The notes under the pieces were generated by a model that worked only from the letters and a program-made list of their open reading frames with translations, was not told where the DNA came from and did no database searches. A program made the translations under genes and the position numbers. From an uncultured archaeon (GTDB lineage Archaea > Asgardarchaeota > Heimdallarchaeia > Heimdallarchaeales > Heimdallarchaeaceae): DNA of 34,700 nt. The stretch is taken from NCBI GenBank assembly GCA_964549075.1, contig CAZJUB010000007.1:4214-38913 (forward strand). Reading direction: 5' to 3'. This document shows, in pieces, positions 3,456-30,540 of the stretch (position 1 is its first letter; each line of letters begins with the position of its first letter).

Positions 3456-3980
3456 ATGTTGGATGAAAATAAAATAAATTTTCATTATCAAGCATTTTCT
3501 TCTCCTAAAAACATGAATATAGATCTCTATTTGCAGAAATTAAAATCCGTACAAGAGAGTAGCACCTATCTTCAAATTCTTGATCCAACTTTAATTATAA
3601 GTGAAAGACATTTGCAGATTGCAATTTATCATACTCTTAAATCATTCGAACAAAAACGCAATATTGCGAGAGACAAAACAACAGAACTCTTGTTAAGAAT
3701 TTCAGGAAAAAATCAAATATCAGATGCAATAAGATTATATGGTGTCAAGCCATCAACAAGTATAATTTTAATAGTAGCATTCAGTGATCACATAAGAAAT
3801 AATAAAGAAATAATTGAGAGATTTTTAAAATCAATTCAAATCTCCGATGAAGAAGAAATAAATATAAAATTCCCTTTACTTAGCATTAAAGAATTAAGTC
3901 AAAAATATCAGTGTGAAGAGAATTTAAAGGAAATTGAAAAACGAGTATTAGAAAATATGGCTGCACTTTCTGTTGCATAG
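3456..3980 (+). CDS. cgi121: KEOPS complex subunit Cgi121
   Basis: QILDPTLIISERHLQIAIYHT...NIARDKTTELLLRISGKNQISDAIRLYGVK matches the Cgi121/TPRKB signature; 8 bp downstream of the AMP phosphorylase. Confidence 0.88.
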   Translation: MLDENKINFHYQAFSSPKNMNIDLYLQKLKSVQESSTYLQILDPTLIISERHLQIAIYHTLKSFEQKRNIARDKTTELLLRISGKNQISDAIRLYGVKPSTSIILIVAFSDHIRNNKEIIERFLKSIQISDEEEINIKFPLLSIKELSQKYQCEENLKEIEKRVLENMAALSVA

Positions 3981-9404: not shown

Positions 9405-9788
9405 ATGATAAATGGCTTATCTCAAGATAAAAAAACAAGACTACTTAGTATTTTAAGAGATATATCCAGAGAGTGCAGTTTGAGTGCTATCGCAGTGGTT
9501 AGTTCTGAAGGTCAAGAACTTGCATTTTTCGCAGAAAAAAGTACAGATCAGGTCATAATGGCAGCATTAGCTTCTGCATTAAATTCAGCTGGTCAACAGA
9601 CTGTAAACCAGATTAAATGCGGGAATCTTGACCAAGTTATAATTAAAGGAACAGAAGGTTTTGTTATTCTACTTAATCTTGATCAATTTATAGTTCTAGC
9701 AGCCTCCAAGGACATCTATAGTTTGGCATTAGCTATGAATGTACTTACAAAATATGGTAAAAATGTTTATCAGGTTCTTATTTCTTAG
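9405..9788 (+). CDS. Roadblock/LC7 (MglB/LAMTOR-like) domain protein
   Basis: AIAVVSSEGQEL...IMAALASAL...CGNLDQVIIKGTEGFVIL is the Roadblock pattern; SD GAGG upstream. Confidence 0.9.
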   Translation: MINGLSQDKKTRLLSILRDISRECSLSAIAVVSSEGQELAFFAEKSTDQVIMAALASALNSAGQQTVNQIKCGNLDQVIIKGTEGFVILLNLDQFIVLAASKDIYSLALAMNVLTKYGKNVYQVLIS

Positions 9789-15117: not shown

Positions 15118-17235
15118 TTATTTATCAATCTCTAGTTTAGAAATATATTCTATGAAGAATTTTTTCACTTTTTTAGCTTCGCCTTCATAATACTTGAAGG
15201 ATCCAACAACCTCATGACCTCCACCTTCAACACCAGCATTAGGTAGTTTTTTCTGCATTAATTTTACTGCTTCAGGAAAGTTAATTTGAAGAGCTTTTGA
15301 CCTTAAAATAATGAAATCTGGTCCTTCACCTAACGTAACTACTGCTTTATCCTTATTCTCATTACAATAATAATCAAAAACCAATCCTGTCAACTTTCCA
15401 GGATTAGGAAATGTAAATTTGTGTGAAAAAAGTTCTACATCAATAGTAACCAATAGTACGTTGTTTTCCAATGTTTTAACATGGCTATTTGGTAATGTAT
15501 TCTTTAGTGCTTTGTCTAACAAACTTTTTGTCTCATTTCCAATTAAGTTAAACATATTGTTATGCCATTCTGGATCTGTTTCTACTCCAAATAATATTTT
15601 AATTAGATTGTAACCTTCTGAGTATCTAAGTTGATATACCTCAAAGTCAACAGAGAGACCTATTTTCTGTAAATCTCCAATCGAATATCCTTTCTTTTCC
15701 GCTAATTTTATATATTGATCTATTTCATTTCCTTCCACTCGATCCATTAAACCAGCAATAGCAGGCAAATGTTGTAACTCTTCGTGAATTTCAGGATATA
15801 TAATTCGAGCAAGTTCAAATCCTAGCATCCCAGCAGAAAGCTCATATCCTCCTCCTACAAAATAAGGATTTACAAGTATATCAACCAAATCTTTAATTTC
15901 ATTTTCAGGAAAATGATGATCTACAACAAGAATCTCTAAACCTAGGGATTTAATTTGTAGATAAGGAAATAAGGACTCTGTACTTGAGCCAAAATCCATA
16001 CAAATATATAATGGAAGTTTGTCTCCAAACCTTTCTTGGTCTGATAAAGCAAAATCTAGATCCTTTGTTACGTCAATAACATCAAAAAAAGGAGGTTTAT
16101 TAGGAAGACGTTTAAGACGGATTCGAATTGTATCAGCATCATATCCTTCTTGAAGCATGAGCTTCTGAATTGCATGTTGTACAGCAAAACCTGCAATTGT
16201 TCCATCAGCATCAGCATGATTACGAACATATATGGGTTGTCCTGTAAATACTGCTTTTCTAATTCTCTTTGCTACTTCTACTAAATCTGGCTTTAGTTTT
16301 TCTAGTAACTGACTCTTAATCGAGAATTTAAAATCAGCAGGTACTGATTTATCATCTAATGCTTTTTCTATTTCTTCCAACATTCCAACTGTTTCAGAAG
16401 TATTTAATTCTTCCATATCACTTACTTCAATTTGAAGAATTTCTCGATGCTTGTTGATTTCTCCAAAGACATTTACAACCATATCTTCAGTGATTTCAGG
16501 AAATGCTCTTTCACCAGGTCTTATAAAAGCTGCAGAGCTAATTGTTCCAGAAGGATCTACCAAGGTAAACCTTGTTGGTCCAGAAGTCTGAAGAATTGAA
16601 ACTACTTTAGCGTTTATAGAGATAAACGAACCTTCCATACCTTCTTTTAAATCTTTAATTTGAAACTTTCTTACCTTACCTCTTAAGGATTCCACAGTAT
16701 AATCGTCAAGATGAACAGGTATTCCGAACAATTTTCCTTGCTCATTTATGAAATTAATTCTTACGATAATTTCTTCACCAATATCCCAAGCATAATCTTG
16801 AGTGATATCTTTGGTTCTAATTAAGACGTTAAGATTGGGAGCTAGAGAAACAAAAACACCAATGTTCTTTACACTTTCCACTCTAGAAAGCATTAACATG
16901 TCTTTTCTAATTAGCTGTGAATCTATAGGAGGTTTTAATCTATAGACTAATGGTATTTTTCTATCCTCACATTTTGGACATAATCCAGAAGCAGAGGGAA
17001 CAGTTAGAATTTTTCTACATGAACTACAATATTTCACTGTCTTTTTACCATTACAAGTTGGGCATTTTTCGCGAATGATAATTTTACCCTTTCCATTACA
17101 TTGTTCACAAATATCTCCCCCCTCATCTCCACCTAGTGTGAATGAAGTCTTGCCTATTCCAAGACAACTGGGACATATCATTTTTTCTTTGATAATCTTA
17201 CCATGACCTTTACATGTTGGACATGTTGAACTCAA
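15118..17235 (-). CDS. Archaeal RecJ-like DHH exonuclease with DnaJ-type Zn finger and S1/OB folds (COG1107-type)
   Basis: Repeated CxxCxGxG (CPTCKGHG, CPSCLGIG, CEQCNGKG, CPTCNGK); S1-like GVFVSL; OB fold QTSGPTRFTL; DHH motifs NHADADG, MDFGS, VDHH and GGGH. SD AGGTGA precedes the TTG. Confidence 0.92.
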   Translation of the reverse strand: MSSTCPTCKGHGKIIKEKMICPSCLGIGKTSFTLGGDEGGDICEQCNGKGKIIIREKCPTCNGKKTVKYCSSCRKILTVPSASGLCPKCEDRKIPLVYRLKPPIDSQLIRKDMLMLSRVESVKNIGVFVSLAPNLNVLIRTKDITQDYAWDIGEEIIVRINFINEQGKLFGIPVHLDDYTVESLRGKVRKFQIKDLKEGMEGSFISINAKVVSILQTSGPTRFTLVDPSGTISSAAFIRPGERAFPEITEDMVVNVFGEINKHREILQIEVSDMEELNTSETVGMLEEIEKALDDKSVPADFKFSIKSQLLEKLKPDLVEVAKRIRKAVFTGQPIYVRNHADADGTIAGFAVQHAIQKLMLQEGYDADTIRIRLKRLPNKPPFFDVIDVTKDLDFALSDQERFGDKLPLYICMDFGSSTESLFPYLQIKSLGLEILVVDHHFPENEIKDLVDILVNPYFVGGGYELSAGMLGFELARIIYPEIHEELQHLPAIAGLMDRVEGNEIDQYIKLAEKKGYSIGDLQKIGLSVDFEVYQLRYSEGYNLIKILFGVETDPEWHNNMFNLIGNETKSLLDKALKNTLPNSHVKTLENNVLLVTIDVELFSHKFTFPNPGKLTGLVFDYYCNENKDKAVVTLGEGPDFIILRSKALQINFPEAVKLMQKKLPNAGVEGGGHEVVGSFKYYEGEAKKVKKFFIEYISKLEIDK

Positions 17236-22185: not shown

Positions 22186-22277
22186 TCTTCATAAGTACGT
22201 AAAATAATTTATCGAATAATCAACATACTCCCTTGACAAAGCTTATATTTCCTAGTAAGAACAAAGCAAAGAGGTTA

Positions 22278-24410
22278 ATGTCTGATCATTTCTTAGATGG
22301 GGGAGAAAGTGAGTACTCTTTTTGTCCTAATTGTGGAAAGATTCTTCCTAGAGGAAGTGGTGAACAACAATGTTCTAAGTGTAAAAAAATCTCAAAAGCA
22401 ATAGCTAAAGAAGGGTCATCTAAATCAATTAAAACTTCTAAGACAATTGATCCACGTGTTAAGGAAGAAAGATCTGGATTGGATAATTGGGAAAGCTTCT
22501 TTCCATATTTAACCATTAGACCTCTACAAAAAACAATTATGGAAACCATAACGCAAGATAGTAAAAGAAAAAATCATTTTGTTCTCCAAGCTGCAAATGG
22601 TGTAGGTAAAACTATAGCTGTTTTAGCATCTATTCTTCCAATCAGTTTTGCAAAAAATAAAACTATAGTATATTGTTGTCGTACTCATCAACAAATGAGT
22701 AGAGTTGTAGAAGAACTAAAGATGATCAAACAACTCAAATCTGTTTCTGGAATTGCACTTAGAGGGAGAAAAGAATTGTGTTTACATCCTATAATCAAGA
22801 AATTTGCTGTTGATTCAACTAATGCAGCAGATATATGTAGATATTTGAAAAAAGAAGGAAAGTGTAAATATTTTGCAAATATGGGTAAAAAAGATAAACA
22901 AGAAAAGATGAAAGAAACCACTCATAATCAAATACTTGATAGCTCTGAAATTCTAAATATTGGTAAATCATTAGAAATGTGCCCATTTGAAATATCAAAA
23001 AGAATGATTTCTAGCTCTAAAGTAATTGCAGCTAGTTATCAATACATCTTCAACCCTAGCATTAGAACTACAATTTTACAAAGCCTTGAAAAGGATTTAG
23101 GTGATATAATCTTAATAATTGATGAAGCTCATAATCTACCCTCAACAGCAGTAGATATTAGTAGCAGTACTCTTTCTAATTATTCAATAGATCATGCTCA
23201 AAATGAAGCTTTGAAATATAAAACTGGAGAGATTTATGATTTCTTGGAAGCAATGTCTTCAGTTTTACTTGAGGATACCAAGGATTTGAATATCGAAGAA
23301 GAAGTGAGTATGAATCCTAGTGATTTTCTTACAAAGGTCGAAAAACGATCTATGCAAAAAATTGATGATAAATTTATTCAAGCTTTAGAGAGATTGGGAG
23401 ATTTTGTCAAAGAAATTCAAGCTAGTCAAAATAAAGCTCCAATTTCATTTACCTCAGCTGTAGCTAGCTATTTGGAACAATTACTTACAAATAGAGATAA
23501 GAAAAACTATGCTTTTTTTCAAACAAAAACTAGAACAAAGAGCGGTGATACTAACTCAAAATTAATATCATTATCCCTTGATCCCAGAACGATAACCAAA
23601 GAGATTTTTGACAAATCATATCTAACAGTTTCTCTCTCAGGGACTCTAGATCCATTTGAAGCATATATCTCATTAGTAGGTATCCCTGAATCTCATATAA
23701 GAACATTGAATCTGCCTTCTCCTTATGAAAAGGAAAATCATGTAACATTAGTCATAGACAAAATTTCATCAAAAATGGAAGATCGTATTCCTATTACGTT
23801 CATAAAAATGGTTGAAGTTATCAGTACTGTTGTAAACTCGACACCTAAAAATACTGGTATTTTTTGTGCAAGTTACTCCATTATGAAAAGTATTCTTGAT
23901 ATTGGTCTTGAAAGAAGTCTTTCAAAACCTTTATTCACAGCACATCAAGGAATGTCTTCTTTAGATAATGACGAACTACTAGAAGATTTCAAAAAACAAT
24001 CTCGAAAAAAAGGAGCAGCTTTAATTTCCGTTTTAGGAGGAAGATCTTCTGAAGGAAGTGACTACCCGGGGGCAGAAATGCAAAGTGTAATAGTAGTAGG
24101 TATACCTTATGCAAAACCCACTCCATCTGTTCAAGCTTCAATCGAATATTTGGGGAGTCAATTTCCAACCAAGGGGAGAGAATTTGGATATAATATCCCA
24201 GCATTAACAAGAGCTTCACAAGCAGCTGGGAGACCAATAAGAAGTCTAGAAGATTATGCTGTAATAGTTCTTATGGATTACCGTTTTATCAGGCACTATT
24301 ATAAAAAACACTTACCTAATTGGCTAAAGGAAAATCTGCATCTAGTTCAAGCTGAAGCAAATATAATCGAAGAAAAGATAAAGAAATTTTATCAATTTCA
24401 TGAAAACTAA
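22278..24410 (+). CDS. xpd: XPD/Rad3 family Fe-S SF2 DNA helicase with N-terminal zinc ribbon
   Basis: Q motif RPLQ; Walker A QAANGVGKT; RTHQQ; Fe-S Cys in ELCLHP, DICRY, KCKYF and MCPFE; IDEAHNL; SGTL; SEGSDY; QAAGRPIRS; MDYRF. SD GAGGT precedes ATG 22278. Confidence 0.9.
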   Translation: MSDHFLDGGESEYSFCPNCGKILPRGSGEQQCSKCKKISKAIAKEGSSKSIKTSKTIDPRVKEERSGLDNWESFFPYLTIRPLQKTIMETITQDSKRKNHFVLQAANGVGKTIAVLASILPISFAKNKTIVYCCRTHQQMSRVVEELKMIKQLKSVSGIALRGRKELCLHPIIKKFAVDSTNAADICRYLKKEGKCKYFANMGKKDKQEKMKETTHNQILDSSEILNIGKSLEMCPFEISKRMISSSKVIAASYQYIFNPSIRTTILQSLEKDLGDIILIIDEAHNLPSTAVDISSSTLSNYSIDHAQNEALKYKTGEIYDFLEAMSSVLLEDTKDLNIEEEVSMNPSDFLTKVEKRSMQKIDDKFIQALERLGDFVKEIQASQNKAPISFTSAVASYLEQLLTNRDKKNYAFFQTKTRTKSGDTNSKLISLSLDPRTITKEIFDKSYLTVSLSGTLDPFEAYISLVGIPESHIRTLNLPSPYEKENHVTLVIDKISSKMEDRIPITFIKMVEVISTVVNSTPKNTGIFCASYSIMKSILDIGLERSLSKPLFTAHQGMSSLDNDELLEDFKKQSRKKGAALISVLGGRSSEGSDYPGAEMQSVIVVGIPYAKPTPSVQASIEYLGSQFPTKGREFGYNIPALTRASQAAGRPIRSLEDYAVIVLMDYRFIRHYYKKHLPNWLKENLHLVQAEANIIEEKIKKFYQFHEN

Positions 24411-24981: not shown

Positions 24982-27006
24982 ATGCTAAGAAAAAAACATT
25001 TTAGTTTAATAGTTATTTTGTCGCTACTTTTACCACTATTTGCTACTTTTAATGGTGTCAATCAAACAACAGCTGTTACTCAAATTCCTAGTAACATAGA
25101 AGAAATAGTGACAAATGCTATAACAACACAGACATTTACTGGTACAACAAATATAACTACATTTGTAGGTCCAGATAACGCATATAAGGTTGTTTTAAGC
25201 TCAATTAAGAATGCTCAAACTTCATTTTATTTAGAGGTATATACTCTTTCAAGTGAACCTCTTGTTAATGAACTAATTAGAGCCCACAATAGAGGAGTTG
25301 ATGTCGTAGTCCAACTCTCTGATGACCGAGTAAATAGTTATGAAGATGATTATACTGAGGAAGCAGCATGGAGATTATACGATGCAGGAATAGATGTCTA
25401 TTGGACAAGTAGTTCCTTTACTTTCACTCATGCTAAATTCTGGATTGTAGACAGTCAACAAACATTTGTTTACTCAGGTAATTGGGCACCATCAAGTATT
25501 CCCCAATATGAAGGTGCTAGAACAAACAGAGAGATGGGATTAATTTTCAACGATGCAAGTATTGCTACTTATTATGAGAATGTATTCTTTGACGATGGAG
25601 CTATTTCGACAGCTTATACACCAATCCCTCATACTGGTTCTCTTCAAGCTAATGAAACAACAGGTACATACGAACATCCCTTTGATTACTCTACTTTTGT
25701 AGAATATGCAGAAGTGACTCCTATTTTTGCTCCAGATAACGCGTATGATCTTCTTTCCAACCTTGTCCAATCAGCAACAACAAGTCTTGATCTTGAACTA
25801 CAATACATCAAATTTGATTGTGACTTATTGAATGATGTCATAGATGCAGCTCTTAGAGGTGTAGCTGTAAGAGTTCTTATTCCAGAACCAACAGATTCCG
25901 GTGAAAATGTAACAGAAGTTTTAATCAATAATGGTGCTCAGGTAAGATTCTTTCTAGGACTTGGCCATAATCATAACAAATATGTCTCTGTTGATGGAGA
26001 AACAGTTCAAGTTTCCAGTATCAATTGGTCAAATAACTCTATTGAAAATAATAGAGAATCAGGTGCAATTGTTAAGAATTCTAATATCGCTGCCTACTTT
26101 AAAACTGTGTTTGATTATGATTGGGCTAACAGTGAAGTTCCAGTAGGTTATGCAGCACCTGTAGCACTATTATCTCCAAAGACAGGTGGTATTGCTTCTG
26201 GTGATTATATATTCCAGGTTTCATTTGCTGTAAACACTTATACAGAAGGAGAATTATCTATTGATGGTTCCTCTGAACATGTTTGGTCAGCTCCTGATGG
26301 AGTTGTTAGCACAAGTGTAAATACAAAATCATTTAATGATGGTATTCACACCGTAAAAGTTGTTGGAACACCAACTGTTGGAGATCCGATTGAAGTAGAA
26401 ACTAAAATTAACATTATTAATGCTAAAGATTGGTACGTGCTTATTACTGAAGTTAGGTATGATGCTATTGTAGAACCAAATGATGAATTCGTAGAAATTT
26501 ACAACGATTTTGATTTTGCTGTTTATTTAGAAGGATGGCAATTTACTGACAATGAAGGAAAATACAATCTTCCTGTTGATGCACAGATAGCTTCAGAACA
26601 GGTTTTAGTGTTCTGTTCTGATAGTGCAGCATTAGATAATGCTATGAATGACCTTGGTATAACCTTTGGTGCTGCTGACTATGGATTGGGAGATATTCAA
26701 TTAGCAAACTCAGGCGACGAGATTATTCTAAAAGATCCTTCTGGCACAATAAGAGATGGTGTTGCTTGGGGGACAGGTAGCATACCCGGAGTCGTTTCAT
26801 GGTCCGGTCCTTCTACAGGAGAAGATAAGACTCTCCAACGTGAATATGGTAACGTTGATACTGATAATTGCAACAATGATTTCATCATTGCAGCTCCAAC
26901 ACCTGGAGAAAATCCTGATCTAACACCAGAATTAACACCTTTGATGGTTTTACCTCTCTTAAGTGTTGCAGCTTTAGTTATTGTCTTTTTGAGAAAAAAG
27001 AGATAA
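24982..27006 (+). CDS. Secreted, membrane-anchored phospholipase D superfamily protein with Ig-like and lamin-tail domains
   Basis: Signal peptide; two HKD motifs (HAKFWIVD...SGNW, HNKYVSVD...SINW); Ig-like segment ...FNDGIHTVKVVG; LTD VLITEVRYD..NDEFVEIYN...LANSGDEIILKD; C-terminal TM plus RKKR. Confidence 0.9.
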   Translation: MLRKKHFSLIVILSLLLPLFATFNGVNQTTAVTQIPSNIEEIVTNAITTQTFTGTTNITTFVGPDNAYKVVLSSIKNAQTSFYLEVYTLSSEPLVNELIRAHNRGVDVVVQLSDDRVNSYEDDYTEEAAWRLYDAGIDVYWTSSSFTFTHAKFWIVDSQQTFVYSGNWAPSSIPQYEGARTNREMGLIFNDASIATYYENVFFDDGAISTAYTPIPHTGSLQANETTGTYEHPFDYSTFVEYAEVTPIFAPDNAYDLLSNLVQSATTSLDLELQYIKFDCDLLNDVIDAALRGVAVRVLIPEPTDSGENVTEVLINNGAQVRFFLGLGHNHNKYVSVDGETVQVSSINWSNNSIENNRESGAIVKNSNIAAYFKTVFDYDWANSEVPVGYAAPVALLSPKTGGIASGDYIFQVSFAVNTYTEGELSIDGSSEHVWSAPDGVVSTSVNTKSFNDGIHTVKVVGTPTVGDPIEVETKINIINAKDWYVLITEVRYDAIVEPNDEFVEIYNDFDFAVYLEGWQFTDNEGKYNLPVDAQIASEQVLVFCSDSAALDNAMNDLGITFGAADYGLGDIQLANSGDEIILKDPSGTIRDGVAWGTGSIPGVVSWSGPSTGEDKTLQREYGNVDTDNCNNDFIIAAPTPGENPDLTPELTPLMVLPLLSVAALVIVFLRKKR

Positions 27007-27033: not shown

Positions 27034-27058
27034 ATTGAAAAACCCTTTATTGTATAAC

Positions 27059-28201
27059 ATGAACCTCGCTAATCAAGTTGTTTATTTCTCAGATAGAGAA
27101 CAAACATTTGAATCCATGATACTCTATATGGACTTAGATGCCTTTTTTGCATCAGTTGAAATAAGAGAGAATCCGAAATTAGCGGGAAAACCTTTAGTTG
27201 TAGGTGGAAATCCTAAAACAAAGCGAGGAGTCGTTAGTACTTGTTCATATGAAGCTAGAGAGTTTGGAATTCATTCAGGAATGCCAATTAATCAAGCGTT
27301 GAAACTATGTCCACATTTAACCATGGTAAGAGGTTCATACAATCTTTATGGAGAAGTATCAAAACGCATAATGAAAATTCTAGAGCATTATTCTCCAATT
27401 ATGAAAATAGCAGGTAATGATGAAGCTTATTTGGATTTAACCAATGTTGTTGCAGATTATGATGAAGCAAAAAAATTAGCAATGGAGTTAAAAGACGATA
27501 TTTATGCTAGTGAAGGTTTAACTTGTTCCATAGGTGTTGCTCCTAATAGAATTTTAGCAAAAATTGCGTCAGATTCAGATAAACCTGATGGATTAGTTGT
27601 TGTAAAACCTCTAGAAATTGCTGAATTTCTTGCTCCCTTAAAAATATCTATTATTCCTGGAGTTGGTAAAAAAAGTTCTGAGATTTTTGCTAAAGAGAAC
27701 ATCAAATTGTGCAGAGATCTTGCTGTAATTCCACATCAACTTGCTTATCAAAAATTCGGTAAATATGGACTTAAGACTTGGAAGTTGGTAAACGGATATA
27801 ATACTGAAAACACTGAAGAAAAATTTGTGAAACATGAACGAAAGTCAATCAGTGAAGAACGTACATTTTTTGAGAGATATAGTTCTTGGGAAGAAATTTG
27901 GCATAAAATTGACTCTTCAATTGATACCATAATAACAAGACTTACAATGAAAAATATGAGTTTTAAAACAATTACTCTAAAAATCCGTTTCAAGAATTTT
28001 GAGACTTATACTCGAGCACATTCTCTTACCAGTTATAATACAGCTCCTAAACATGTTAGAATTGTGGTTAAAAAACTTCTTGAGGAATTTGAAAATATGA
28101 AACCTGAGGATATCAGATTAGTAGGTGTGAAAATCTCTAATTTAAGAAAAATAGATGACAACCAAAAAACTTTATCACAATTTTTTAATAAGATGGATTA
28201 G
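27059..28201 (+). CDS. dinB: Y-family DNA polymerase IV (DinB/Dpo4) with C-terminal PIP box
   Basis: MDLDAFFASVE, STCSYEAREFG, DEAYLD, CSIGVAPNRILAKIASD.DKPDG, IPGVGKKS and little finger ...IRLVGV; terminal QKTLSQFF. Start is ATG 27059 or 27116. Confidence 0.95.
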   Translation: MNLANQVVYFSDREQTFESMILYMDLDAFFASVEIRENPKLAGKPLVVGGNPKTKRGVVSTCSYEAREFGIHSGMPINQALKLCPHLTMVRGSYNLYGEVSKRIMKILEHYSPIMKIAGNDEAYLDLTNVVADYDEAKKLAMELKDDIYASEGLTCSIGVAPNRILAKIASDSDKPDGLVVVKPLEIAEFLAPLKISIIPGVGKKSSEIFAKENIKLCRDLAVIPHQLAYQKFGKYGLKTWKLVNGYNTENTEEKFVKHERKSISEERTFFERYSSWEEIWHKIDSSIDTIITRLTMKNMSFKTITLKIRFKNFETYTRAHSLTSYNTAPKHVRIVVKKLLEEFENMKPEDIRLVGVKISNLRKIDDNQKTLSQFFNKMD

Positions 28202-28226
28202 TTGGTAATTGAGAAAGGAGCTCGTA

Positions 28227-29570
28227 ATGTCTAGCGAAATTCCCGATTGGTTTGTATTAAAAGATCCAGGAGACATTACAGTAGATGCTACTAGTTGGAA
28301 TCGTTATGCGAATGCCAGATTACAACGCTTAATTGACGAAGATGTATGGAGTATTTCTAAACCTTCATGGATGAATGATGAAGAATGGTATCAAACCAAA
28401 GTAGAAGAAATTGGTGGTCATATATTATTAAGATTAGCAGTTTCTAAAGATCCTAGGTTAACTTCATGGTTGGTTGAAGTAGAAGGAGATCTCTTTGAAT
28501 TCCGTTTTATGAGCAGTCCGAGTTTTGAACAAAAGGTCTGTGTGTTAAAGGAGCTCTATGATGAAGAAAATGTAAAAACTATAGAAGAGCTTGATCAGTT
28601 GTTTAAAATAAATTTATATCGACTTTTCAATTTGGCAGATGTTCCAGTTAAAACTAAAAGACAACCAAAGAGTAAATATGGAACTCTTATCAAAGATCTA
28701 GATCGCAGGATTGCAGTCAAATTTTATAAAATTCCTTCTGTAGTTTCAGCAAAAAAAGTTTTACTTTACAAAGGTTGGGGTATTGTAAGATTAGCTGATA
28801 TTAGGTTGGCTGTTAAAAGAGAATTCGAGCGACAATTAAAAATAGTGATAGAAAAATCAAAGAAGATTGTAGAGTCAAATAAAAATCTTGATGATACTAT
28901 CAAGCCTATAAGAGACAAAATTACCGAAATAGCTAGACAAACCAAATTAACAAGTGATTTATCAAGCTTAGGAATTGGAGAAGGAGAAGATATTTTCTCT
29001 AAACCAGAACTATTTCCTCCTTGTATTTTGGAACTAATCAGTATATTGAAATCCAGAGGTCACTTATCTCACATTGAAAATTGGCAACTTGGCACATTCC
29101 TTAAGAAAGCTGGAATGTCTATTGAAGACCAGCAAAGATTTTGGTATAATAATTCAGTAGATAATGTTGGGGTGTCATTTGAAGAATTTGTACGAAGAGT
29201 AGGTTATCAAATAAAACACATTTACGGAGAAGTTGGAGGTGGTATAGATTACAGTCCTCCTAGTTGTAAAACCTGTATAAATGGATACTTTTGTTATTGG
29301 GCTCATAAAAAACTTGAAGATATTTCTGATGACATCAGAATAAGAATGAGAGATAGGAATCAAGAGGTGGTTGAGAGAACAATTGAAGACATCTCTAAAC
29401 TAATTATTAATCAACGTTTTCAAGCTGCATGTGGAAGATATTTTACACTCTTAACTGGTTGGAAAAAAGAAAGTATCTCACACATGTTAAGTTACACTAC
29501 TCAAGCTTACAGATGGTATTCATCTAGAAAGCAGAAGAAGGAAGCGCAGGAGGAGAAAAAAGATGAGTAG
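28227..29570 (+). CDS. priL: DNA primase large subunit (eukaryote-like Fe-S C-terminal domain)
   Basis: HILLRLA...EGDLFEFRF; FPPCI; HLSH...LGTFLK; YQIKHIYG...DYSPPSC; FCYW; FQAACGRYF. SD AAGGAG precedes ATG 28227. Confidence 0.92.
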   Translation: MSSEIPDWFVLKDPGDITVDATSWNRYANARLQRLIDEDVWSISKPSWMNDEEWYQTKVEEIGGHILLRLAVSKDPRLTSWLVEVEGDLFEFRFMSSPSFEQKVCVLKELYDEENVKTIEELDQLFKINLYRLFNLADVPVKTKRQPKSKYGTLIKDLDRRIAVKFYKIPSVVSAKKVLLYKGWGIVRLADIRLAVKREFERQLKIVIEKSKKIVESNKNLDDTIKPIRDKITEIARQTKLTSDLSSLGIGEGEDIFSKPELFPPCILELISILKSRGHLSHIENWQLGTFLKKAGMSIEDQQRFWYNNSVDNVGVSFEEFVRRVGYQIKHIYGEVGGGIDYSPPSCKTCINGYFCYWAHKKLEDISDDIRIRMRDRNQEVVERTIEDISKLIINQRFQAACGRYFTLLTGWKKESISHMLSYTTQAYRWYSSRKQKKEAQEEKKDE

Positions 29571-30540
29571 AGAACTTACTGATGAGATTCTATCAAGATA
29601 TTATGATGAAAAATTTCCTATGGATTACTTCATGTCTTTCATCGGTTTATCAAATTTTCAGAATAGGGAATTTGGTTTTGTTGTAGGGGAAAATAGATTT
29701 GTGAGGAATATATCTTTCTCCAACACAGGAGAATTAAAGAATTTTATGGTTCAAAATAGTGTAAGACATGCTTATGTTGGAGCTGTTTATGATAAACCTC
29801 CATCAAAAAATAATCCAATTCAGAAAATCAAATGGCAATCGAGAGAATTTATCTATGATATAGATATTGATGAATATGATTTGGTTCGAACTTGTGGTTG
29901 CCATGGAGATGTCTATTGTAAAGATTGCTGGTCTCTTGTTCAAGAAGCAGCTCTTTTTATTGATGAAACTATGAAAGAGGATTTTGGTTTTAAAGAAGTT
30001 ATTTGGTTTTTCTCTGGGAGAAGAGGAGTCCATGGTTGGGTAATGGATAAAATAACAAAAGATTTTGATCAATCTCAACGCGTAGCAATTCTTAATTATC
30101 TCACGTTCATCCATGACGAGAAACGAACACAATCCATAGAAGAAATCCCAAATGAAGCAAAACCACTTAGGAATAGAATCTATGCATTAGTTGCAAAAGC
30201 TTTTTTGGATAGAGCTACACCTGACAATCTCAAAGAAATAGGTATGTCAGCTAGAAAAGCAAATGAGATTGTAAGTAGGATAAAGACTATTGAAAACTTC
30301 GATCATAATCAATACAATATTTTAATTCCTAATGATACTGTCATCAGAAATAAACTCTCGGAAGAATTCATTTTAAGAAGATATCCTAGAATTGATAGAA
30401 AAGTTACAATGGATACAAGAAGAGTAAGTAGGATGCCCTATTCAATTCATGGTAAAACGGGACAAATAGCTATAGAAATTAAAAACATAGAAAAATTTTA
30501 CCCTGATTCAGCACCTACAGTATGGGATACGATGATATAA
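29563..30540 (+). CDS. priS: DNA primase small (catalytic) subunit
   Basis: NREFGF; REFIYDIDIDEYD (motif I); Zn site RTCGC...CKDCW; FSGRRGVHGW (motif II); PRIDRKVT..RRVSRMPYSIHGKTG (motif III). Overlaps priL by 8 bp. Confidence 0.96.
   Translation: MSRELTDEILSRYYDEKFPMDYFMSFIGLSNFQNREFGFVVGENRFVRNISFSNTGELKNFMVQNSVRHAYVGAVYDKPPSKNNPIQKIKWQSREFIYDIDIDEYDLVRTCGCHGDVYCKDCWSLVQEAALFIDETMKEDFGFKEVIWFFSGRRGVHGWVMDKITKDFDQSQRVAILNYLTFIHDEKRTQSIEEIPNEAKPLRNRIYALVAKAFLDRATPDNLKEIGMSARKANEIVSRIKTIENFDHNQYNILIPNDTVIRNKLSEEFILRRYPRIDRKVTMDTRRVSRMPYSIHGKTGQIAIEIKNIEKFYPDSAPTVWDTMI

What the first reader, a model, noticed from the sequence alone, without database searches (positions are those of the whole stretch)
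28227..29570. PriL resembles eukaryotic PRIM2 along its whole length rather than a typical archaeal PriL
Seen: GHILLRLAVSKDPRLTSWLVEVEGDLFEFRF, YKIPSVVSAKKVLLYKGWGIV, FPPCI...HLSHIENWQLGTFLKKAGMSIEDQQRFW, YQIKHIYGEVGGGIDYSPPSC, FCYWAH and a late FQAACGRYF. Recalled human PRIM2 segments are SHFILRLAY...WFIQQEMDLLRFRF, KVYLEDGFAYV, FPPCM...HLRH...GLFLKGIG, YNIRHSFGKEG...DYTPFSC, GCPFRH and YQVACQKYF. The distal Fe-S Cys, after a helical spacer of roughly 45 aa, follows the eukaryotic layout, whereas typical archaeal PriL clusters its last cysteines. Inference: this is close to the ancestor of the Pol alpha-primase p58 subunit. Eukaryote-like primases may already be reported in some Asgard lineages, so novelty is uncertain.
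Basis: partly seen in the sequence, partly recalled or inferred. Interest (0 to 1): 0.7.

Follow-up and report, generated by a model that had tools for sequence, protein, structure and literature searches.

The report
Known eukaryote-like Asgard primase large subunit
This is the ordinary, single-copy primase large subunit of a Heimdall-family Asgard archaeon; it really is built like the human protein, but two 2025 papers already described this class.

Summary
ORF 28227-29570 (+) encodes a 447-aa PriL. It is followed, with an 8-nt overlap, by priS. It is the only PriL found in its 89.7%-complete genome.

It matches eukaryotic PRIM2 over residues 12-441 (profile-profile E 1.7e-52). It matches ordinary archaeal PriL only over residues 161-358 (E 3e-20).

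The four Fe-S cysteines are C266, C347, C356 and C402. The gap from the third to the fourth cysteine is 46 residues. The median is 46 in Heimdall-type PriL, 40 in eukaryotes, and 6-12 in 116 ordinary archaeal PriL.

ML trees separate Heimdall-type plus eukaryotic PriL from ordinary archaeal PriL with 100/100 support.

This is already published: PMC12770985 and PMC12680538 describe the "Heimdall group/clan" primase. This scan also reached the same verdict on other genomes.

The window's lineage is not shown to be the nearest relative of eukaryotes.

One extra point: its family replaces the near-universal Arg that is essential for initiation in human and yeast primase (human R306) with Asn285.

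The parts
28227..29570 (+). priL: 447-aa DNA primase large (regulatory) subunit of the Heimdall (eukaryote-like) type, stop codon included
   Evidence: ORF. Pfam PF04104 E 1.3e-38 over residues 162-423. Full-length profile match to eukaryotic PRIM2. Start ATG 28227 is preceded by GGAG at 28217-28220 and agrees with most homologues.
29022..29024 (+). Cys266 (FPPC), first 4Fe-4S ligand candidate
   Evidence: Aligned to human Cys287. Cys in 319 of 319 aligned PriL/PRIM2. Human ligands are named in PMC8514734.
29265..29267 (+). Cys347 (PPSC), second ligand candidate
   Evidence: Aligned to human Cys367. Cys in 319 of 319.
29292..29294 (+). Cys356 (FCYW), third ligand candidate; 9 residues after Cys347, as in ordinary archaeal PriL (the eukaryotic median is 17)
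   Evidence: Cys in 318 of 319 rows.
29295..29429 (+). 45-residue segment between the third and fourth cysteines (residues 357-401). It is shared with eukaryotic PRIM2 and absent from ordinary archaeal PriL.
   Evidence: Spacing table and alignment block. The Pfam profile is matched to its last positions only in this type. It is described as part of the added helices around the Fe-S cluster in PMC12770985 and PMC12680538.
29430..29432 (+). Cys402 (QAAC), fourth ligand candidate
   Evidence: Aligned to human Cys424. Cys in 113 of 113 Heimdall-type and 81 of 81 eukaryote-type rows.
29079..29081 (+). Asn285, at the position of human Arg306 (which binds the beta/gamma phosphates of the initiating nucleotide)
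   Evidence: Alignment. Role of R306 from PMC5333051 and PMC5700102.
29563..30540 (+). priS: 325-aa catalytic primase subunit. Its ATG overlaps the priL stop by 8 nt, and GAGGAG lies at 29550-29555.
   Evidence: PF01896 E 9.6e-33. TIGR00335 scores 180 bits against a cut-off of 143.5. Eukaryotic PRIM1 chains score 1.3e-43 to 3.5e-37, archaeal PriS chains 2.6e-19 to 6e-13. YVG at 71-73, DIDID at 99-103, Zn cysteines at 111, 113, 119 and 122.
27035..28201 (+). dinB-type Y-family DNA polymerase gene directly upstream (25 nt before the priL ATG), probably in the same transcription unit
   Evidence: Pfam IMS, IMS_C and IMS_HHH. The same gene lies upstream of priL in 7 of 7 same-family loci examined.

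Best explanation
The gene encodes the regulatory large subunit (PriL) of the one replicative primase of a Heimdallarchaeaceae archaeon. It belongs to the published 'Heimdall group/clan' of eukaryote-like primases. It is co-expressed with the catalytic subunit PriS from an overlapping gene pair.

By analogy with human and yeast primase, the N-terminal helical domain docks on PriS. The C-terminal domain holds a 4Fe-4S cluster through C266, C347, C356 and C402, and supplies the initiation site that holds the template and the 5' nucleotide during dinucleotide synthesis.

Two added stretches make the C-terminal domain eukaryote-like: about 45 residues between the third and fourth cysteine, and about 13 residues after the fourth. 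The published models describe these as helices that enclose the cluster. The primer is presumably handed to PolD or PolB, not to a Pol alpha.

Shown here: gene order, homology, cysteine layout, tree position and single copy. Inferred from the family: cluster binding, initiation role, helices and hand-off.
For: Gene and family:
- ORF and overlap with priS.
- PF04104 and PF01896 above their cut-offs.
- One PriL match and one PriS match in the own genome, which is 3.23 Mb and 89.7% complete.
- Relatives that carry names are Heimdallarchaeaceae, Heimdallarchaeota or Kariarchaeaceae MAG proteins; 46 hits, best 96% identity.

Resemblance to eukaryotes:
- PDB hits at E<=1 are all eukaryotic.
- Profile A1 finds 25 eukaryotic chains and 0 of 6 archaeal PriL chains.
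- hhalign E 1.7e-52 over 404 columns against eukaryotes, versus 3e-20 over 174 columns against Loki-type PriL.
- Of the best 150 representatives in a search of 1.84 billion proteins, 67 fit the Heimdall-type profile best, 83 a metazoan PRIM2 profile, and 0 the ordinary archaeal profile.

Cysteine layout and domain end:
- Cysteine spacing.
- The Pfam profile is matched to its end (position 252 or beyond) in 46 of 149 Asgard genomes with a match. This includes 33 of 34 genomes of the window's class; the 34th is cut by a contig end. These are my hand counts from the table.
- No match reaches beyond position 232 in 40 and 41 matching genomes of two non-Asgard phyla.

Trees:
- Split of 33 ordinary archaeal rows from 57 Heimdall-type plus eukaryote-type rows, 100/100.
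- SH-aLRT 100 in the quick tree and in the core-columns-only tree.

Partner and downstream polymerases:
- PriS is also eukaryote-like and carries the Y-x-G motif of the Heimdall group.
- PolD DP2 and DP1, and two PolB-family frames, are in the own genome.

Published support:
- PMC12770985 (abstract; sections 14, 15, 16, 20 read).
- PMC12680538 (abstract and passages read). It used a PriL of Ca. Heimdallarchaeum endolithica and reports a yeast two-hybrid interaction of Heimdallarchaeal PriL with the DP2 C-terminal domain.
Against: - No 3D model was obtained. The helical nature of the added stretches, and the position of C402 and of the extra C350 relative to the cluster, rest on alignment and on published models of relatives.
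- The position of human Arg306, called critical or essential for initiation, is Asn here. The initiation-site role of this C-terminal domain may therefore not work exactly as in human primase.
- In the characterised relative Gerd_ePriSL, PriL only slightly enhanced primer synthesis.
- Most eukaryote-type rows in my tree carry no names. They were labelled by best-fitting profile; only P0101, P0264 and P0274 are named eukaryotic proteins.
- Thermococci/Methanobacteriota, DPANN and Thermoplasmatota were not sampled, except through PDB chains.
- The bootstrap of the careful tree had not fully settled (correlation 0.915).
Confidence: 0.93

Rival explanations
1. The gene is a eukaryote-to-archaeon transfer (or a transfer from a eukaryote-like virus), not a descendant of the archaeal stock from which PRIM2 arose.
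For: My trees are unrooted, so direction cannot be read from them. PMC12770985 itself says that horizontal transfer before eukaryogenesis cannot be excluded. An unlabelled metagenomic clade, possibly from mobile elements, sits next to eukaryotes with weak 88/72 support.
Against: - The type occurs in 46 of 149 matching Asgard genomes. This includes 33 of 34 genomes of the window's class and six further family codes.
- It is the only PriL of the genome.
- It keeps the archaeal priL-priS neighbourhood in 18 of 30 Heimdall-type loci examined.
- It keeps the archaeal C2-x8-C3 spacing, while eukaryotes have a median of 17.
- Eukaryote-type rows form one 100/100 clade that holds no Heimdall-type row.
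Confidence: 0.04
2. In this family the PriL C-terminal domain no longer forms the initiating-nucleotide site in the human way. The site was either rebuilt with other residues or moved to another factor, as PriX did in Sulfolobus.
For: - Asn285 stands where Arg is found in 81 of 81 eukaryote-type, 121 of 125 ordinary archaeal and 64 of 113 Heimdall-type rows.
- All 40 compared rows (besides the query) that are at least 48% identical to the query have Asn there; all but two (P0016, P0013: Q-V-G) carry the motif H-x-x-N-W-Q-L-G.
- Family-specific columns are N309, C350 and M420, plus basic K361, R377 and R404.
- Precedent of PriX replacing the PriL C-terminal domain (PMC5700102).
Against: - No PriX family match in the own genome; the control rang in Sulfolobus.
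- His282, the equivalent of human His303 that stacks on the initiating base, is kept, as are the four cysteines and the flanking motifs.
- The domain is under clear conservation: 96% to 48% identity within the family.
- No structure or assay was available.
Confidence: 0.25
3. The resemblance is chance or compositional, and this is an ordinary archaeal PriL.
For: None found.
Against: E-values of 1e-22 to 1e-52 to eukaryotic proteins over nearly the full length. Scores of only 21-59 bits against five NCBIfam archaeal PriL models, whose cut-offs are 339-479, while a Loki-type PriL scores 221-335 on four of them and 47 on the fifth (NF003051). Tree split 100/100.
Confidence: 0.01

Closest known systems
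Heimdall-clan PriL of Ca. Heimdallarchaeum endolithica (Feng et al. 2025, PMC12680538)
   Same: Probably the same family: the relatives that carry names are named Heimdallarchaeaceae. [quoted passage not shown] All sequence-level points are reproduced here.
   Different: I did not hold that protein by name, so identity to it is not measured. The paper's main text does not mention the Arg-to-Asn change; I searched its text for 'triphosphate', 'arginine' and 'R306'. Its supplements were not read.
Gerd_ePriL of Ca. Gerdarchaeota archaeon B18_G1 (Li et al. 2025, PMC12770985)
   Same: Same Heimdall group. Fe-S cysteines C252, C334, C343 and C388 give spacings of 82/9/45, against 81/9/46 here. It lies next to a PriS with a Y-x-G motif.
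   Different: That genome also has two Loki-type PriL copies, whereas this one has a single PriL match. Rows of the window's class outside its family have Arg at position 285, so the characterised enzyme may differ from this one at that residue. I could not check Gerd_ePriL itself.
Human PRIM2 / p58 of Pol alpha-primase (PDB 4rr2_B, 5f0q_A and others)
   Same: Alignable over query residues 12-441. C266, C347 and C402 align with Cys287, Cys367 and Cys424 by HMMER, and C356 with Cys384 by MAFFT. His282 equals His303. The long spacer before the last cysteine is shared.
   Different: - The loop between the second and third cysteine is 9 residues, not 17.
- Asn285 replaces Arg306, and Ser281 replaces Arg302.
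- Leu288 and Val325 stand where human has Tyr309 and Tyr345.
- The N and C ends are shorter (447 against about 509 aa).
- It falls outside the 100/100 eukaryote clade.
- The partner polymerases in the genome are PolD and PolB. No Pol alpha is reported in Asgard genomes.
Ordinary archaeal PriL (Loki group; Saccharolobus solfataricus PriL, PDB 5of3_B)
   Same: Same superfamily (PF04104). The same first three cysteine motifs (FPPC, PPSC, then Cys 9 residues on), a conserved H-P motif after the last cysteine, and priS next door.
   Different: These proteins are 329-442 aa long. The last cysteine follows the third after 6-12 residues, and the first-to-second spacing is 68-73 instead of 80-83. The N-terminal domain is not alignable by profile to the query's group.

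Membership tests
PriL/PRIM2 superfamily (Pfam PF04104, DNA_primase_lrg) | Profile match above the curated cut-off | tested here: met
   133.3 bits against a cut-off of 22.4, residues 162-423, profile positions 3-265 of 266.
PriL/PRIM2 superfamily (Pfam PF04104, DNA_primase_lrg) | Four conserved cysteines of the 4Fe-4S domain | tested here: met
   C266, C347, C356 and C402 are invariant in 28 relatives. They lie in columns that are Cys in 302-319 of 319 aligned proteins.
PriL/PRIM2 superfamily (Pfam PF04104, DNA_primase_lrg) | Actual binding of a 4Fe-4S cluster | not testable with these tools
   Needs protein.
Heimdall-group (Asgard-eukaryotic) PriL, as defined in PMC12770985 and PMC12680538 | Groups with eukaryotic PRIM2, apart from other archaeal PriL | tested here: met
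   100/100 split in the careful tree. SH-aLRT 100 in the quick tree and in the core-only tree.
Heimdall-group (Asgard-eukaryotic) PriL, as defined in PMC12770985 and PMC12680538 | Extra C-terminal segment (three helices) around the Fe-S cluster | tested here: inconclusive
   The added sequence is there: 45 residues between the third and fourth cysteine, more after the fourth, and the Pfam profile is matched to its end. Whether it forms three helices that enclose the cluster could not be modelled here.
Heimdall-group (Asgard-eukaryotic) PriL, as defined in PMC12770985 and PMC12680538 | PriL longer than PriS; adjacent PriS with motif Y-x-G about 25 residues before the DxD motif | tested here: met
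   447 against 325 aa. YVG at 71-73 and DIDID at 99-103. Motif definition.
Heimdall-group (Asgard-eukaryotic) PriL, as defined in PMC12770985 and PMC12680538 | Short (<9 nt) primers, dNTP preference | not testable with these tools
   Biochemistry reported only for Gerd_ePriSL.
Eukaryotic PRIM2 (p58 of Pol alpha-primase) | Falls inside the eukaryotic clade | tested here: not met
   The eukaryote-type rows form a 100/100 clade that excludes the query.
Eukaryotic PRIM2 (p58 of Pol alpha-primase) | Arg306 equivalent that binds the triphosphate of the initiating nucleotide | tested here: not met
   Asn285 here, against Arg in 81 of 81 eukaryote-type rows.
Eukaryotic PRIM2 (p58 of Pol alpha-primase) | Stable complex with Pol alpha and its B subunit | not tested
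   The own genome has PolD (DP1, DP2) and two PolB-family frames. I did not classify the PolB frames. PMC12770985 states that no Pol alpha was identified in Asgard genomes.
Ordinary archaeal PriL (NCBIfam PriL equivalogs; Loki group) | Score at or near the curated cut-off of an archaeal PriL model over the full length | tested here: not met
   21-59 bits against cut-offs of 339-479, matching only residues about 141-369. A Loki-type PriL scores 221-335 bits over its full length on four of these five models and 47 bits on the fifth (NF003051).
Ordinary archaeal PriL (NCBIfam PriL equivalogs; Loki group) | Last three cysteines clustered (C-x8-C-x5 to x11-C) | tested here: not met
   The third-to-fourth distance is 46 here, against 6-12 in 116 ordinary archaeal PriL.

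The most novel reading that the evidence does not exclude
In Heimdallarchaeaceae the initiation site of the eukaryote-like PriL C-terminal domain has been rebuilt. The arginine that is essential for dinucleotide synthesis in human and yeast primase, and is near-universal in archaeal PriL, is replaced by a conserved Asn-Trp pair. Alongside it are a fifth cysteine (C350) next to the cluster ligands and family-specific basic residues (K361, R377, R404) in or beside the eukaryote-type insertion. This primase would then hold its first nucleotide in a way not seen in any characterised primase.
Probability: 0.2. Interest if true: 0.45.

Novelty: already known. Interest (0 to 1): 0.22.

Why it matters
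The eukaryote-like primase of Heimdall-type Asgard archaea is evidence that part of the eukaryotic replisome took shape in archaea before eukaryotes arose. That case has been made in print, with trees, predicted structures, yeast two-hybrid assays and enzymology on a relative. This window adds one more confirmed member.

Three smaller points remain useful:
- A family-wide loss of the initiation arginine. This can be tested with recombinant protein, and it matters when choosing which Heimdall primase to use as a model.
- A conserved dinB-priL-priS gene order in this family.
- An annotation gap. No NCBIfam PriL model comes near its cut-off, and the named database relatives are all called 'hypothetical protein'.

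Tried and rejected
- **Structure prediction.** Asked five times and never accepted. There is therefore no AlphaFold model, no fold search and no superposition on p58C or on the Sulfolobus PriL C-terminal domain.
- **The listing of cluster members.** I labelled them by best-fitting profile instead, and got names for one eukaryotic representative and its relatives.
- **The search for related loci with the 15-row Loki-type alignment.** An 8-row alignment worked, but returned mostly Bathyarchaeia and Jord/Frey/Hermod/Thor records. Thermococci, DPANN and Thermoplasmatota are therefore unsampled.
- **AU test.** I asked whether eukaryotes plus the query's trio can form one clade. It did not finish in four 300-s calls, so nothing can be said from it.
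- **Origin of the clade next to eukaryotes (P0104 type).** Its relatives carry no organism names. No match at E<=1e-40 in 400 Asgard species genomes. None in viral contigs with a single-protein pattern. Its metagenome records are not held for whole-record searches. A RadA-like neighbour has no match at E<=1e-60 in 121 Asgard genomes. PHROGs gave only nucleotidyltransferase and recombinase-type hits. The origin is left open.
- **Other blanks.** The ESM Atlas holds no model of this protein. Rfam, tRNA and tandem-repeat scans of the window found nothing.
- **Rejected readings.** Chance resemblance; ordinary archaeal PriL; a second hidden PriL in the assembled part of the genome; a PriX-like helper.
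Full report
**What is there.** The window has about 32% G+C. It carries a same-strand run: an XPD-type helicase gene, an unassigned 164-aa ORF, a PLD/LTD protein, dinB, priL and priS.

- priL runs from ATG 28227 to the stop at 29568-29570 and encodes 447 aa.
- A TTG at 28209 opens the mechanical ORF. GGAG at 28217-28220 lies 6 nt before the ATG, and most homologues begin at the same Met-Ser.
- The priS ATG (29563) overlaps the priL stop by 8 nt, with GAGGAG 7 nt upstream. This suggests coupled translation; that is an inference.
- Pfam assigns PriL to PF04104 (E 1.3e-38) and PriS to PF01896 (E 9.6e-33).
- The genome holding the window is 3.23 Mb in 217 contigs and 89.7% complete. It has exactly one match to each family, both in this window.
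- Relatives that carry a name come from Heimdallarchaeaceae, Heimdallarchaeota or Kariarchaeaceae MAGs. There were 46 hits, the best at 96% identity, and all named ones are called 'hypothetical protein'.

**Check of the observation.** All quoted strings are present. The recalled human strings are seen in the PDB chains aligned.

- The single sequence finds 25 PDB chains at E<=1, all eukaryotic primase large subunits. The best is 8g99_C at 1.1e-22, aligned to query 55-439.
- The PDB copy does hold six archaeal PriL chains. A profile of ordinary archaeal PriL (A2) finds them at 1.6e-36 to 1e-3.
- A profile of the query's relatives (A1) finds none of those six at E<=1. It finds 25 eukaryotic chains down to 5.3e-50.
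- Profile-profile comparison:
  - A1 against 19 eukaryote-type PRIM2: E 1.7e-52, 404 columns, query 12-441.
  - A1 against A2: E 3e-20, 174 columns, query 161-358.
  - Eukaryote-type against A2: E 4e-17.
- A search of 1.84 billion representatives gave 1021 hits. Of the best 150, 67 fit the Heimdall-type profile best, 83 a profile of named metazoan PRIM2, and none the ordinary archaeal profile. One of the 83 was looked up and is a sponge PRIM2 with named animal relatives.
- Five NCBIfam archaeal PriL models give the query 21-59 bits, against cut-offs of 339-479. A Freyarchaeia-titled Loki-type PriL scores 221-335 bits on four of them and 47 bits on the fifth.
- The ESM Atlas feature search ranks eukaryotic PRIM2 clusters first (0.97) and archaeal clusters at 0.88 and 0.87. 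This is a lead only.

**Cysteine layout.** In 28 relatives the invariant cysteines are C266, C347, C356 and C402; C350 is not invariant. Human PRIM2 ligates its cluster through Cys287, Cys367, Cys384 and Cys424 (passage of PMC8514734). In the HMMER alignment, C266, C347 and C402 face Cys287, Cys367 and Cys424. MAFFT puts C356 in the column of Cys384.

I aligned 319 proteins: 113 Heimdall-type, 81 eukaryote-type and 125 ordinary archaeal. Nine archaeal rows and one eukaryote-type row lacking a Cys in one column were left out of the spacing table. The distances between cysteines are:

| Distance | Heimdall-type | Eukaryote-type | Ordinary archaeal |
|---|---|---|---|
| first to second | 80-83 | median 79 | 68-73 |
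| second to third | 9-11 | median 17 | 9 |
| third to fourth | 39-66 (median 46) | 31-43 (median 40) | 6-12 |

The ordinary archaeal rows used are 15 Loki-type Asgard, 69 named mostly Bathyarchaeia, and 16 plus 16 from two non-Asgard phyla. After the fourth cysteine all groups share an H-P motif. It follows within 4-5 residues in ordinary archaea and after about 17 residues in the other two groups (alignment block). In the query this motif reads H-M.

The query therefore has the eukaryotic first-to-second and third-to-fourth spacings, but the archaeal second-to-third loop.

**Distribution.** I sampled 151 Asgard species genomes, of which 149 have a PF04104 match.

- By my hand count of the table, 46 genomes have a match reaching profile position 252 or beyond, with frames of 423-498 aa.
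- These are 33 of the 34 genomes of the window's class (the 34th match is cut by a contig end), plus 13 genomes of six other family codes.
- The other matches end at position 245 or before; most lie in frames of about 345-444 aa.
- In 41 genomes of the phylum of a MAG titled Archaeoglobaceae (40 with a match), and in 41 genomes of the phylum of a MAG titled Bathyarchaeota (41 with a match), no match goes beyond position 232.

**Trees.** From the 319 candidates I dropped truncated ORFs, loci proteins under 320 aa and database proteins under 400 aa. I then thinned by identity to 90 rows: 42 Heimdall-type, 15 eukaryote-type, 12 Loki-type Asgard, 5 named Bathyarchaeia, and 7 plus 9 from the two other phyla.

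- The careful tree used IQ-TREE with LG+C20+F+G4 PMSF on 450 columns. A branch with 100/100 support separates the 33 ordinary archaeal rows from the other 57.
- The 15 eukaryote-type rows form a 100/100 clade.
- The query groups with P0036 and P0052 (100/94), then with a Kariarchaeaceae-named protein.
- The sister of eukaryotes is a clade of six unnamed metagenomic rows, with weak 88/72 support.
- The bootstrap had not fully settled (correlation 0.915).
- With only the core shared by all groups (query 161-358, 196 columns, quick search), the same split has SH-aLRT 100 and the eukaryote clade 98.
- Labels of unnamed rows come from profile fit, so they are not independent of similarity.

**PriS.** PriS is also closer to eukaryotic PRIM1 (1.3e-43 to 3.5e-37, covering residues 7-320) than to archaeal PriS chains (2.6e-19 to 6e-13). 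It has YVG at 71-73, 26 residues before DIDID at 99-103. This is the Y-x-G signature that PMC12770985 gives for the Heimdall group. A PriS relative lies within the 1.5-kb flank in 18 of 30 other Heimdall-type loci.

**How it most likely works.** Established knowledge of the family is taken from PMC5333051 and PMC5700102 (passages read).

- PriS catalyses primer synthesis.
- The PriL C-terminal domain supplies the initiation site and holds the 5' triphosphate end and the template.
- The Fe-S cluster is part of that domain's fold.

For the Heimdall type, PMC12770985 (sections read) reports the following for a Gerdarchaeota enzyme:

- three added C-terminal helices that are thought to shield the cluster;
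- a more colour-stable protein;
- primers under 9 nt;
- a preference for dNTPs.

PMC12680538 (passages) reports the same structural gain for a Heimdallarchaeum PriL, and a two-hybrid interaction with the C-terminal domain of PolD DP2. The own genome has DP2, DP1 and two PolB-family frames and no PriX match. Applying all of this to the window's protein is inference.

[quoted passage not shown] It is called essential for initiation, together with yeast R355. The query has Asn285 at this position, inside H-I-E-N-W-Q-L-G. The flanking His282 (human His303) and the Q-x-G residues anchor the alignment.

- The column is Arg in 81 of 81 eukaryote-type rows, 121 of 125 ordinary archaeal rows and 64 of 113 Heimdall-type rows.
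- It is Asn in 42 Heimdall-type rows. These include every row at least 48% identical to the query, and all 7 loci of the window's genus and family. Rows of the same order outside the family have Arg.
- Other family-specific columns are W286, N309, C350 and M420, plus basic K361, R377 and R404.
- Neither 2025 paper's main text mentions this. Their supplements were not read.

**Comparison and novelty.** The protein meets every sequence-level feature of the published Heimdall-group PriL. It is not a member of the eukaryotic clade, and it fails the features of ordinary archaeal PriL. The central claim has been in print since 2025, so the finding is a sound confirmation and not a discovery.

Noticed in passing
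window 29079-29084 (Asn285-Trp286 of PriL): The arginine equivalent to human PRIM2 Arg306 is Asn here and in all 42 close relatives compared. It is Arg in 81/81 eukaryote-type and 121/125 ordinary archaeal PriL. The change is confined to the window's family plus two other rows.
   Followed up: partly
window 29274-29276 (Cys350 of PriL): A fifth cysteine lies three residues after the second Fe-S ligand (S-C-K-T-C). It is present in 40 of 42 rows of the Asn285 subgroup and is mostly Ile, Leu or Met elsewhere. Whether it lies near the cluster is unknown.
   Followed up: partly
window 27035-30540: The gene order dinB-priL-priS (a Y-family polymerase gene 25 nt upstream of priL) recurs in 7 of 7 loci of the window's genus and family. 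It is seen in none of the other 23 Heimdall-type loci, within their 1-1.5 kb flanks.
   Followed up: partly
window 28227-29570; relatives P0004, P0012, P0020, P0022, P0024, P0027, P0035: Public records name this PriL type 'hypothetical protein'. No NCBIfam PriL model comes near its cut-off for it: 21-59 bits against 339-479. This is an annotation gap for Heimdall-type PriL.
   Followed up: yes
proteins P0096, P0099, P0104, P0108, P0116, P0158; loci L163:9980-11383 and L164:9830-11176: An unnamed metagenomic PriL clade sits next to eukaryotes in the tree, with weak 88/72 support. It lacks the conserved Arg, and in part the conserved His. It was not found at E<=1e-40 in 400 Asgard genomes. One 99-kb contig carries it beside an intein-bearing class II RNR, two CCA-type nucleotidyltransferases and a RadA-like gene. 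On the other contig, 9 of 10 ORFs have no Pfam family. A mobile-element or viral origin, and long-branch attraction, are both possible.
   Followed up: partly
loci L055, L069, L084, L126 (genome contigs records): Records titled Archaeoglobaceae, Desulfaltia, Krumholzibacteriaceae and Methylomirabilota carry Jord/Frey-like or Bathyarchaeia-like PriL genes. The Archaeoglobaceae-titled genome G151 has a second, different PriL on another contig. These look like mis-binned contigs.
   Followed up: no
G031 (two places): One Asgard genome of another family holds two Heimdall-type PriL matches on different contigs. Its contamination estimate is 11%, so duplication and mixed bins cannot be told apart.
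   Followed up: no
window 15118-17235 (-): A 705-aa ORF combines a DnaJ-type zinc-finger repeat, an OB fold and a DHH domain, the latter two below Pfam's cut-offs. It may be a RecJ/Cdc45-like replication or repair nuclease.
   Followed up: no
window 3456-3980 (+), 9405-9788 (+), 22233-24410 (+), 24982-27006 (+): Other genes of note are a CGI-121 (KEOPS) homologue, a Roadblock/LC7 protein, an XPD-type helicase, and a 674-aa protein with two PLD domains plus a lamin-tail domain and hydrophobic ends.
   Followed up: no
own genome G000:C14:27226-28035 (-) and G000:C2:21712-24015 (+): The PolD DP2 match lies in a 1728-aa open frame. One PolB-family match is split into two stretches within a 1351-aa frame. 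The sizes suggest inteins or insertions; this was not examined.
   Followed up: no
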